From the NCBI GenBank assembly GCA_964016885.1, contig OZ024752.1, positions 35,464,001-35,528,000 on the forward strand: a stretch of DNA of 64,000 nt, in the 5' to 3' direction. This stretch comes from Eledone cirrhosa (taxonomy: Eukaryota). Under the pieces are notes generated by a model. The model was not told the origin of the DNA, did not search any database, and was given only the letters and a program-made list of their open reading frames with translations. Numbering within the stretch: the stretch's first letter is position 1; each line of letters opens with the position of its first letter. Positions 17,392 through 17,570 of the stretch are shown piece after piece. Made by a program: the position numbers and the translations under genes.

Positions 17392-17570
17392 AACGAAGGA
17401 AATGTGGTAAGGAACCAGGTGGACCATAAGGCACCAAAGTACTCAATACTTAGGGTAGTAGAGTGGGTAATAGAGCTCAAGCCGTTTCGACGGCTAATTC
17501 TGGACTAAATTTAGTCCAGAATTAGCCGTCGAAACGGCTTGAGCTCAGCCGTCGGGGTCCTACACGTTCC
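17392..17570. mobile_element. Penelope-like terminal repeat family B, palindromic junction
   Basis: Perfect about 75-bp palindrome 17473-17546; other copies at 18450-18592, 39090-39287, 39328-39372, 56745-56955, 63527-63662, all abutting (TA)n. Confidence 0.75.

What the first reader, a model, noticed from the sequence alone, without database searches (positions are those of the whole stretch)
17473..17560. Family B repeats are half-hammerheads: every copy is cut or folded back inside stem II
Seen: family B reads ...GTCCAGAATTAGCCGTC GAA ACGGCT-tgagctc-AGCCGT C GGGGTCC. That is GAAA, a 6-bp stem III and a GUC triplet, the 3' half of a type I hammerhead. All six loci (about 17510, 18455, 39145, 39328, 56810, 63660) lack the CUGANGA half and begin within about 25 nt upstream of GAAA. 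Three are palindromes centred there, and two share a similar loop (GGACT-aaattt-AGTCC, GGACT-aattc-AGTCC). Known: Penelope-like pLTRs carry hammerheads and often have inverted 5' ends. Inference: the native stem II is this long hairpin, and the cDNA snaps back and self-primes on it. The ribozyme fold would then dictate production of short palindromic non-autonomous inserts. I do not know of this link being described.
Basis: partly seen in the sequence, partly recalled or inferred. Interest (0 to 1): 0.78.

Follow-up and report, generated by a model that had tools for sequence, protein, structure and literature searches.

The report
Penelope copies starting inside their ribozyme
These short palindromic repeats are end fragments of a very abundant Penelope-like jumping gene that nearly all begin at one spot inside its hammerhead ribozyme, likely because the element's messenger RNA starts there and is likely copied twice, once from each cut DNA strand, and joined head to head.

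Summary
Observation confirmed; the proposed mechanism is not. The six loci are 3' ends (pLTR plus optional 78-nt tail) of a Penelope-like retrotransposon with Hydra-clade motifs, inserted in (TA)n; one 25-mer has 32,048 exact genome hits. A full tandem parent exists (L122). Its type I hammerhead has a UUGANAA (U3-A8) or CUGAGAA core, not CUGANGA, and an imperfect covarying stem II that is not the perfect palindrome. 5' ends do pile up inside stem II: 62 of 98 tail-anchored arms end at -47..-30, 1 at -99..-48, 8 run on. The mode is the A of an initiator-matching TTAGTC/TCAGTC. A sister family with different local structure ends at the same A, and TA-flanked copies carry an extra G there (83 of 100), the known cap signature. 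Palindromes pair one tailed and one tail-less arm (98 of 103); none folds on native stem II, and in 28 of 89 the tail-less arm reaches further 5', so neither arm copies the other. Best reading: the promoter fires inside the ribozyme; two cDNAs primed at +20 and +98 run off the mRNA's 5' end and are end-joined. No RNA data were available.

The parts
17392..17511 (-). Tailed (L) arm of family B palindrome: ends at +98 in (TA)n, 5' end at -45, internal deletion of about 24 nt at 17473 that removes the cleavage site
17508..17570 (+). Tail-less (S) arm: AATT overlap 17508-17511, putative transcription start A(-40) at 17513, GAAA 17531-17534, C17 at 17553, ends at +17 in a CT repeat
18446..18590 (+). 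Sister family C copy: L arm from -36 (18455) preceded by a 9-nt inverted piece covering -40..-32; flanked by TA
39085..39145 (-). S arm (5' end -38) of palindrome; older, arms differ at several sites
39147..39286 (+). L arm (5' end -39) of the same palindrome, 1-nt spacer
39329..39375 (+). Solo S arm, 5' end -26, (TA)n on both sides
56743..56803 (-). S arm (5' end -40) of palindrome, followed by a 9-nt insertion duplicated from the arm (56804-56812)
56813..56954 (+). L arm (5' end -44 or -40) of the same palindrome
63526..63663 (-). Solo L arm, 5' end about -39, preceded by about 36 nt of unrelated sequence and (TA)n

Best explanation
These repeats are 3'-end fragments of a Penelope-like retrotransposon whose 5' ends cluster at one adenine inside stem II of its hammerhead, likely the start of the element's capped mRNA, which is likely copied twice (from +20 and from +98) on the two cut strands of a TA repeat and joined head to head. 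Shown: the parent (pLTR-ORF-pLTR, RT plus C-terminal GIY-YIG), the hammerhead layout, the 5'-end cliff, the two fixed 3' ends, the one-tailed, one-tail-less pairing and the extra G. Inferred: (1) A(-40) is a Pol II start, so the mRNA carries only the 3' half of the ribozyme and cannot self-cleave at its 5' end, while a whole ribozyme forms only in read-through RNA; (2) the protein binds the 5' pLTR-ORF junction of its mRNA and starts reverse transcription internally, so about nine in ten insertions are 60- and 138-nt run-off copies; (3) both nicked strands prime on the same RNA or RNA species; (4) the two cDNA ends are sealed by microhomology-type end joining. Long inverted copies arise the same way when priming falls on a downstream pLTR of a read-through RNA. 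The short copies would be by-products, not a self-propagating non-autonomous family.
For: Cliff: 62 of 98 tail-anchored arms end at -47..-30, 1 at -99..-48, 8 run at least 199 nt; 145 of 175 GAAA-anchored arms end at -46..-33, mode -40. Sister family C: 30 of 30 end at -53..-31, 13 of 30 at -40/-39, although that motif is predicted unpaired there and paired in family B. Motif at -42..-36 fits YYANWYY 7 of 7 in both families (consensus from PMC4581360); a TATA-like 7 of 8 match lies at -29 in family B. Extra non-native base before A(-40) next to TA repeat: G 83, A 9, C 8 of the first 100 of 254; control one base further in: G 28, C 15, T 8 of 51; Fisher p = 4e-4; family C G 69, A 18, C 13 of the first 100 of 105. 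An extra G is the cap mark of full-length L1 insertions (PMC11702581). Two primings: 98 of 103 pairs are L/S, 0 S/S, 1 L/L; S reaches further 5' in 28 of 89, L in 45, equal 16; only 30 of 89 fit snap-back from L; solo S arms exist. Same source: 51 of 81 pairs identical at a subfamily-diagnostic 13-mer against 178 of 1,500 random pairs; long arms pair with long arms, 54 of 100 hits in 27 head-to-head pairs. Junctions: 0-4 nt overlaps and arm-templated insertions. In vitro, an anole PLE cuts and extends both strands from two internal sites and needs no ribozyme cleavage (PMC11167929); Penelope has an initiator-type promoter in its pLTR (PMC2377424).
Against: No RNA evidence was obtained. Ends are spread over about 14 nt and some reach -45 (family B) or -53 (family C), so there is more than one start or another cause. 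In all fetched arms reaching -40 the preceding base is G 14, C 29, A 9, T 79: the G excess is clear only at TA-flanked junctions, elsewhere native C and partner bases confound it. The control position also leans to G. An added C on the cDNA could come from terminal transferase activity at any RNA end. The TATA-like box is absent in family C. Frangieh et al. saw no strand difference in start site in vitro, whereas the genome shows strict L/S pairing. One long arm has a short partner (L186). Arm concordance is also what snap-back or gene conversion would give. Samples come mostly from the first 25 Mb of contig C1.
Confidence: 0.62

Rival explanations
1. One reading: the perfect palindrome is native stem II; the cDNA snaps back and self-primes on it.
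For: Breakpoints lie within stem II; stem II is real and covaries; inverted templated insertions show that ends can fold back briefly.
Against: The parent's stem II differs from the palindrome. 0 of 89 palindromes reach the 5' strand of stem II; the 3 of 103 rows that pass -60 are not joined at the stem II pairing. In 28 of 89 each arm holds sequence the other lacks.
Confidence: 0.02
2. One cDNA runs to the RNA end, then self-primes on a chance microhomology and copies itself; the second arm stops at the TAT at +20.
For: Arms are concordant; L reaches further 5' more often than S (45 against 28); 30 of 89 junctions fit; self-priming was inferred for PLEs before (PMC3846280).
Against: 59 of 89 junctions do not fit; S reaches at least 3 nt further in 19; S arms at -40 occur with L partners that end inside the tail; S-first insertions should give S/S palindromes, 0 of 103 seen.
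Confidence: 0.12
3. The RNA does end at about -40, but through a cut (nuclease, small-RNA slicing or splicing) rather than transcription start; the rest of the model holds.
For: Gives the same cliff; an AG at -40/-39 after a pyrimidine run resembles a splice acceptor; the G excess could be terminal transferase bias.
Against: Same position in two families with different local folds but the same initiator-like motif; G excess is position-specific; no shared upstream exon in 14 G-bearing arms read.
Confidence: 0.12
4. Reverse transcriptase stalls on the folded ribozyme (distal hairpin of stem II).
For: In family B the ends fall on the 3' arm of the distal hairpin.
Against: RT passes the more GC-rich stems III and II first; ends in family C fall at the same base in a predicted unpaired stretch; arms that pass -47 almost never stop in the next 150 nt; L122 shows read-through of a whole ribozyme.
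Confidence: 0.05
5. A short non-autonomous master element starting at -40 is transcribed and mobilised in trans.
For: High copy number and fixed size; one diagnostic variant (TTACTTACT) was seen only in short copies in this sample.
Against: Junctions differ from copy to copy; the main diagnostic variants of short copies recur in full-length arms; the anole protein needs RNA downstream of the RT start (PMC11167929), which short copies lack.
Confidence: 0.07

Closest known systems
Hydra-clade Penelope-like elements (Craig et al. 2021, PMC8557442; passages and section 11 read)
   Same: Single ORF with RT and C-terminal GIY-YIG; RWR, DKT, CxCX5C, CxxC and CxH motifs; (TA)n targets; hammerhead in pLTR; tandem plus inverted structure; tail at one end.
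   Different: Tail 78 nt rather than 30-40; core U3-A8 or C3-A8 with a 54-nt stem II; about nine in ten insertions are tiny pLTR-only palindromes with a fixed 5' edge.
Poseidon PAc of Anolis carolinensis (Frangieh et al. 2024, PMC11167929; main text read)
   Same: Two internal RT start sites that define the tail; both strands cut and extended; AT-rich target; predicted dimer; ribozyme cleavage not needed.
   Different: Different clade; there the ORF starts in stem II, here the clade-typical start lies 231 nt after A(-40); strict one-site-per-strand pairing and the 5' edge were not reported in the parts read.
PLE hammerheads, including the U3-A8 variant of Schistosoma Cercyon (Cervera and de la Pena 2014, PMC4209133; results and discussion read)
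   Same: Type I, short stem I, G10.1-C11.1 pair, long stem II, palindromic loop 3, U3-A8 covariation.
   Different: Stem III is a full 5-6 bp; stem II has an internal loop and distal hairpin and contains the putative start site; one subfamily has a C3-A8 mismatch.
L1 twin priming and cap-G at full-length insertions (PMC11702581; passages read)
   Same: Second RT primed from the reciprocal DNA end; end joining with microhomology; extra G at the RNA's 5' end.
   Different: L1 arms are adjacent, non-overlapping parts of the RNA; here both arms copy the same stretch to the same end from two fixed internal sites.
Non-LTR retrozymes (bioRxiv 10.64898/2026.07.22.740005; first fifth read)
   Same: Short, non-coding, PLE-derived, hammerhead-related repeats.
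   Different: Retrozymes are head-to-tail tandems with whole ribozymes; these are dispersed head-to-head half-ribozymes.

Membership tests
Penelope-like element (EN+) | RT plus GIY-YIG endonuclease in one ORF | tested here: met
   710-aa reading frame in L137 with YRDD and VIY..AYIG; Atlas neighbours carry GIY-YIG, RVT_1 and HTH_animal; Pfam itself gave no hit; all copies seen carry breaks
Penelope-like element (EN+) | Partial tandem forming pLTRs, inverted 5' copy, tail at one end | tested here: met
   L122: pLTR-ORF-pLTR, unit 3,057 bp, plus inverted arm; 27 head-to-head pairs in 100 hits
Hydra clade | RWK-type and DKT motifs, CxCX5C linker, CxxC and CxH in EN | tested here: met
   RWR at 27, DKT at 109, CxCX5C at 564, CxxC at 662, CxH at 690 of the L137 frame (definitions)
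Hydra clade | Insertion into (TA)n; length about 3 kb | tested here: met
Hydra clade | Groups with Hydra RTs in a phylogeny | not tested
   No reference set was fetched; nearest Atlas clusters list Ctenophora and Cnidaria from 1-2 records each
Type I hammerhead ribozyme (parent pLTR) | Core C3 U4 G5 A6 N7 G8 A9 as written (CUGANGA) | tested here: not met
   37 of 56 full arms U3-A8, 19 of 56 C3-A8, none C3-G8; N7 takes all four bases. U3-A8 is a known natural, active covariation (PMC3088659); C3-A8 breaks the pair
Type I hammerhead ribozyme (parent pLTR) | GAAA, A15.1-U16.1, H17, G10.1-C11.1 and three stems | tested here: met
   10 arms of two families: 91% of cells paired, 3 stem II pairs change on both sides (one event, B versus C); MFE of L032 is the hammerhead fold, MFE of L073 and L123 is a competing hairpin
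Type I hammerhead ribozyme (parent pLTR) | Self-cleavage after GUC | not testable with these tools
   Indirect only: about 21 of 57 TA-flanked arms starting within -7..+2 begin at +1, 8 flush; inconclusive (counted by eye)
Non-LTR retrozyme | Tandem units each with a whole hammerhead | tested here: not met
   Window copies and 145 of 175 arms hold only the 3' half and lie head to head
Pol II promoter at A(-40) | Initiator consensus at the start | tested here: met
   TTAGTCC, TCAGTCC, TTAGTTC fit YYANWYY; a short, common motif, weak alone
Pol II promoter at A(-40) | Capped RNA 5' ends map there | tested here: inconclusive
   Only the genomic extra-G footprint (against); no RNA reads

The most novel reading that the evidence does not exclude
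This PLE splits its own ribozyme with its promoter: mRNA starts inside stem II and is cleavage-proof, whereas read-through RNA folds a whole hammerhead. Its tens of thousands of by-product palindromes record a general PLE mechanism, in which a dimer primes one DNA strand at the pLTR end and the other at the tail end of one RNA, which explains the inverted 5' pLTR, the one-sided tail and the need for tandems.
Probability: 0.4. Interest if true: 0.76.

Novelty: new variant of a known kind. Interest (0 to 1): 0.6.

Why it matters
How PLEs make inverted pLTRs with a tail at one end, and what their hammerheads do, are stated open questions (PMC8557442, PMC11167929). Here a genome holds over 30,000 miniature insertions whose three fixed coordinates (-40, +20, +98) and strict pairing give an in vivo readout of both. 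They predict a start site inside the ribozyme and one priming site per strand, both testable with the existing in vitro PLE assay. They also explain how a 3-kb element can flood a genome with 200-bp hairpins that repeat finders would call a SINE, MITE or microRNA.

Tried and rejected
Own-genome BLAST with the 68-mer found nothing because common words are skipped. CTGANGA within 30 nt of GAAA: 43 hits, 30 read, all junction coincidences; those loci were left out of the G counts. Rfam: no hammerhead in window or full copy. Pfam: no family for two parent frames. Sequencing runs: no RNA holder listed; no reads laid. Gapped alignment overcalled ends at -44 (15 of 18 such calls were palindrome artefacts); I first took -44 as the edge and dropped it, and with it an MTE-like match (9 of 12) that fits only that register. 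DPE-like match at +28 is 5 of 6, too weak to use. Splice-acceptor origin of the edge: no shared upstream exon. Cleavage products as templates: inconclusive. 97 short tail-only matches (+25..+60) were dropped as a separate tandem array. Earlier scan notes: none. PMC5538555 held no passage on cap G. Literature searches searches listed no paper placing a PLE start site inside the hammerhead or describing twin priming for PLEs; subscription papers (older Penelope mechanism papers) are outside that library, and no supplements were read, so this is not proof of absence.

Full report
Coordinates. Positions are given relative to the cleavage nucleotide C17 (0); GAAA starts at -22. L arm = runs to +98 (with tail); S arm = ends at +20.

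Observation. The six loci are real (9 matches to a 15-mer against 0.01 expected) and each holds only the 3' half of a hammerhead. The genome is 3.0 Gb; its taxon was not determined. A 25-mer spanning -39..-15 has 32,048 exact hits, the 5' half 2,031, a tail 28-mer 30,742 with one added base constraint.

Parent. Ten of 30 loci continue upstream in shared sequence that leads to an RT and GIY-YIG frame. L122 holds a tandem pLTR-ORF-pLTR with a 3,057-bp unit and an inverted third arm. The protein has the motifs that define the Hydra clade in PMC8557442; no tree was built. The tail continues into the 5' leader of the next unit in L122 and L153; both 3' ends fall at TAT, matching the TA target.

Ribozyme. 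In 56 distinct full arms the core is TTGANAA (37) or CTGANAA (19), never CTGANGA. U3-A8 is a known natural covariation (PMC4209133; PMC3088659); the C3-A8 subfamily may be inactive (inference). Stem II spans -76..-23: G-C, a small internal loop, 6-9 bp, then a loop with a distal hairpin. A sister family C has three compensatory changes in stem II (one event, so modest evidence). One full arm folds as a hammerhead in the MFE, two fold into a competing hairpin around GAAA. The perfect palindromes are therefore rearrangements, not native stem II.

5' ends. I fetched all 100 listed hits of a tail-anchored search; 98 were recovered by the script. 62 end at -47..-30, 13 at -29..-1, 3 at 0..+2, 11 at +3..+25, 1 at -99..-48 and 8 run at least 199 nt. 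With ungapped calls, 145 of 175 GAAA-anchored arms end at -46..-33, mode -40; most -44 calls are artefacts. In 50 palindromes of one subfamily many arms stop at -39 or -40 and some reach -45 (read by eye). Family C (2,196 hits) gives 30 of 30 ends at -53..-31, 13 at -40/-39; none of the 100 listed matches shows the native upstream loop in full (read by eye). The shared feature is the A of TTAGTY/TCAGTC, which fits the initiator consensus (PMC4581360) and is predicted paired in family B but unpaired in family C.

Extra G. Where an arm starting at A(-40) abuts a TA repeat through one non-T base, that base is G in 83, A in 9, C in 8 of the first 100 of 254 hits (3 G rows are tandem repeats of one locus). 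One base further in it is G 28, C 15, T 8 of 51; G:C differs with p = 4e-4. Family C: G 69, A 18, C 13 of the first 100 of 105 (about 63, 13, 13 after collapsing clustered rows; no control run). All counted by eye. An extra G marks the cap in full-length L1 insertions (PMC11702581). Against: among all fetched arms reaching -40 the base is T 79, C 29, G 14, A 9, confounded by native C and partner bases. I read this as good evidence that the template RNA physically ends at -40 and fair evidence that the end is capped.

Palindromes. Of 103 head-to-head rows (one duplicate), 98 are L/S, 4 partly tailed/S, 1 L/L, 0 S/S; 35 rows came from loci not chosen by the tail and also hold no S/S. In 89 L/S pairs, S reaches further 5' in 28, L in 45, 16 equal; 30 fit a snap-back from L and none reaches -60. 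Where S reaches further 5' and L further 3', neither can be a copy of the other. Arms share subfamily-diagnostic bases (51 of 81 identical against 178 of 1,500), and long arms pair with long arms (54 of 100 hits in 27 head-to-head pairs; 4 of 5 resolvable cases), although long arms are about 8% of all (14 of 175). Junctions show 0-4 nt overlaps, arm-templated insertions and poly(A/T) runs; that these are typical of polymerase theta end joining is my recollection, not a call result.

Mechanism. An anole PLE protein cuts and extends both strands of AT-rich DNA, starts at two internal RNA sites that bound the tail, needs RNA downstream of those sites and does not need ribozyme cleavage (PMC11167929). 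D. virilis Penelope is transcribed from an initiator-type promoter in its pLTR (PMC2377424). Put together: mRNA starting at -40 presents the pLTR-ORF junction near its 5' end; priming there from both strands yields cDNAs of about 60 and 138 nt that run off the end and are joined. Priming on a downstream junction of read-through RNA yields the long inverted copies. The ribozyme fold does not set the breakpoints; the promoter position does, and it leaves the mRNA with half a ribozyme. Whether the whole ribozyme cleaves in vivo is open: arms starting at +1 are at most mildly enriched.

Known and new. Hydra-clade PLEs, pLTR hammerheads, U3-A8 cores, inverted pLTRs, one-sided tails and a self-priming proposal (PMC3846280) are in print. 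A start site inside the hammerhead, the fixed 5' edge with an extra G, and the strict L/S pairing as evidence for two primings did not appear in the passages read or in searches; older subscription papers were not searchable. Papers seen: PMC11167929 parts 1-2 of 4; PMC4209133 parts 1-2 of 4; PMC2377424 parts 2-3 of 4; PMC8557442 passages and section 11; PMC3846280, PMC11702581, PMC3088659, PMC4581360 passages; bioRxiv 2026.07.22.740005 part 1 of 5; no supplements.

Verdict. Interest 0.6.

Noticed in passing
window 27749-27821 (-): HDV-like (CPEB3 model) ribozyme candidate, 34.7 bits against gathering 35, E 1.7e-5.
   Followed up: no
L002, L010, L015, L020, L030, upstream of position 1500: Long hairpins of non-family DNA directly 5' of the arm, as if the reciprocal end had folded back before joining.
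   Followed up: no
L001, L017, L025 upstream of 1500; L166 (-) 1465; L175 (+) 8052: Other hammerhead-like motifs with canonical CTGANGA cores in different repeats; three family B arms are joined head to head to the same foreign repeat.
   Followed up: no
L061, L067, L084-L089, L124, L126, L130, L131: A successful subfamily with a C3-A8 mismatch in the core (19 of 56 full arms), suggesting that cleavage is dispensable.
   Followed up: partly
L107, L181, L193, L046: Poly(A/T) runs of 13-25 nt at junctions next to the parent's TTT at -43..-41, like reiterative synthesis at the template end.
   Followed up: no
L073, L123 positions -30..-14: The 3' strand of stem II can pair with the 5' strand of stem III across GAAA, a competing fold that could act as an off switch.
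   Followed up: partly
L165 (and 97 matches): Tandem array built from a 36-nt piece of the tail (+25..+60).
   Followed up: no
L139 7949-9160; L140 5294-6649; L132 102-1910: Further PLE families: two more Hydra-like RT frames and one Penelope/Poseidon-like RT plus GIY-YIG frame.
   Followed up: no
window 34474-35826, 23438-24001, 57644-61352: Tandem minisatellite arrays and LINE-like fragments with long open frames; no host exon was sought.
   Followed up: no
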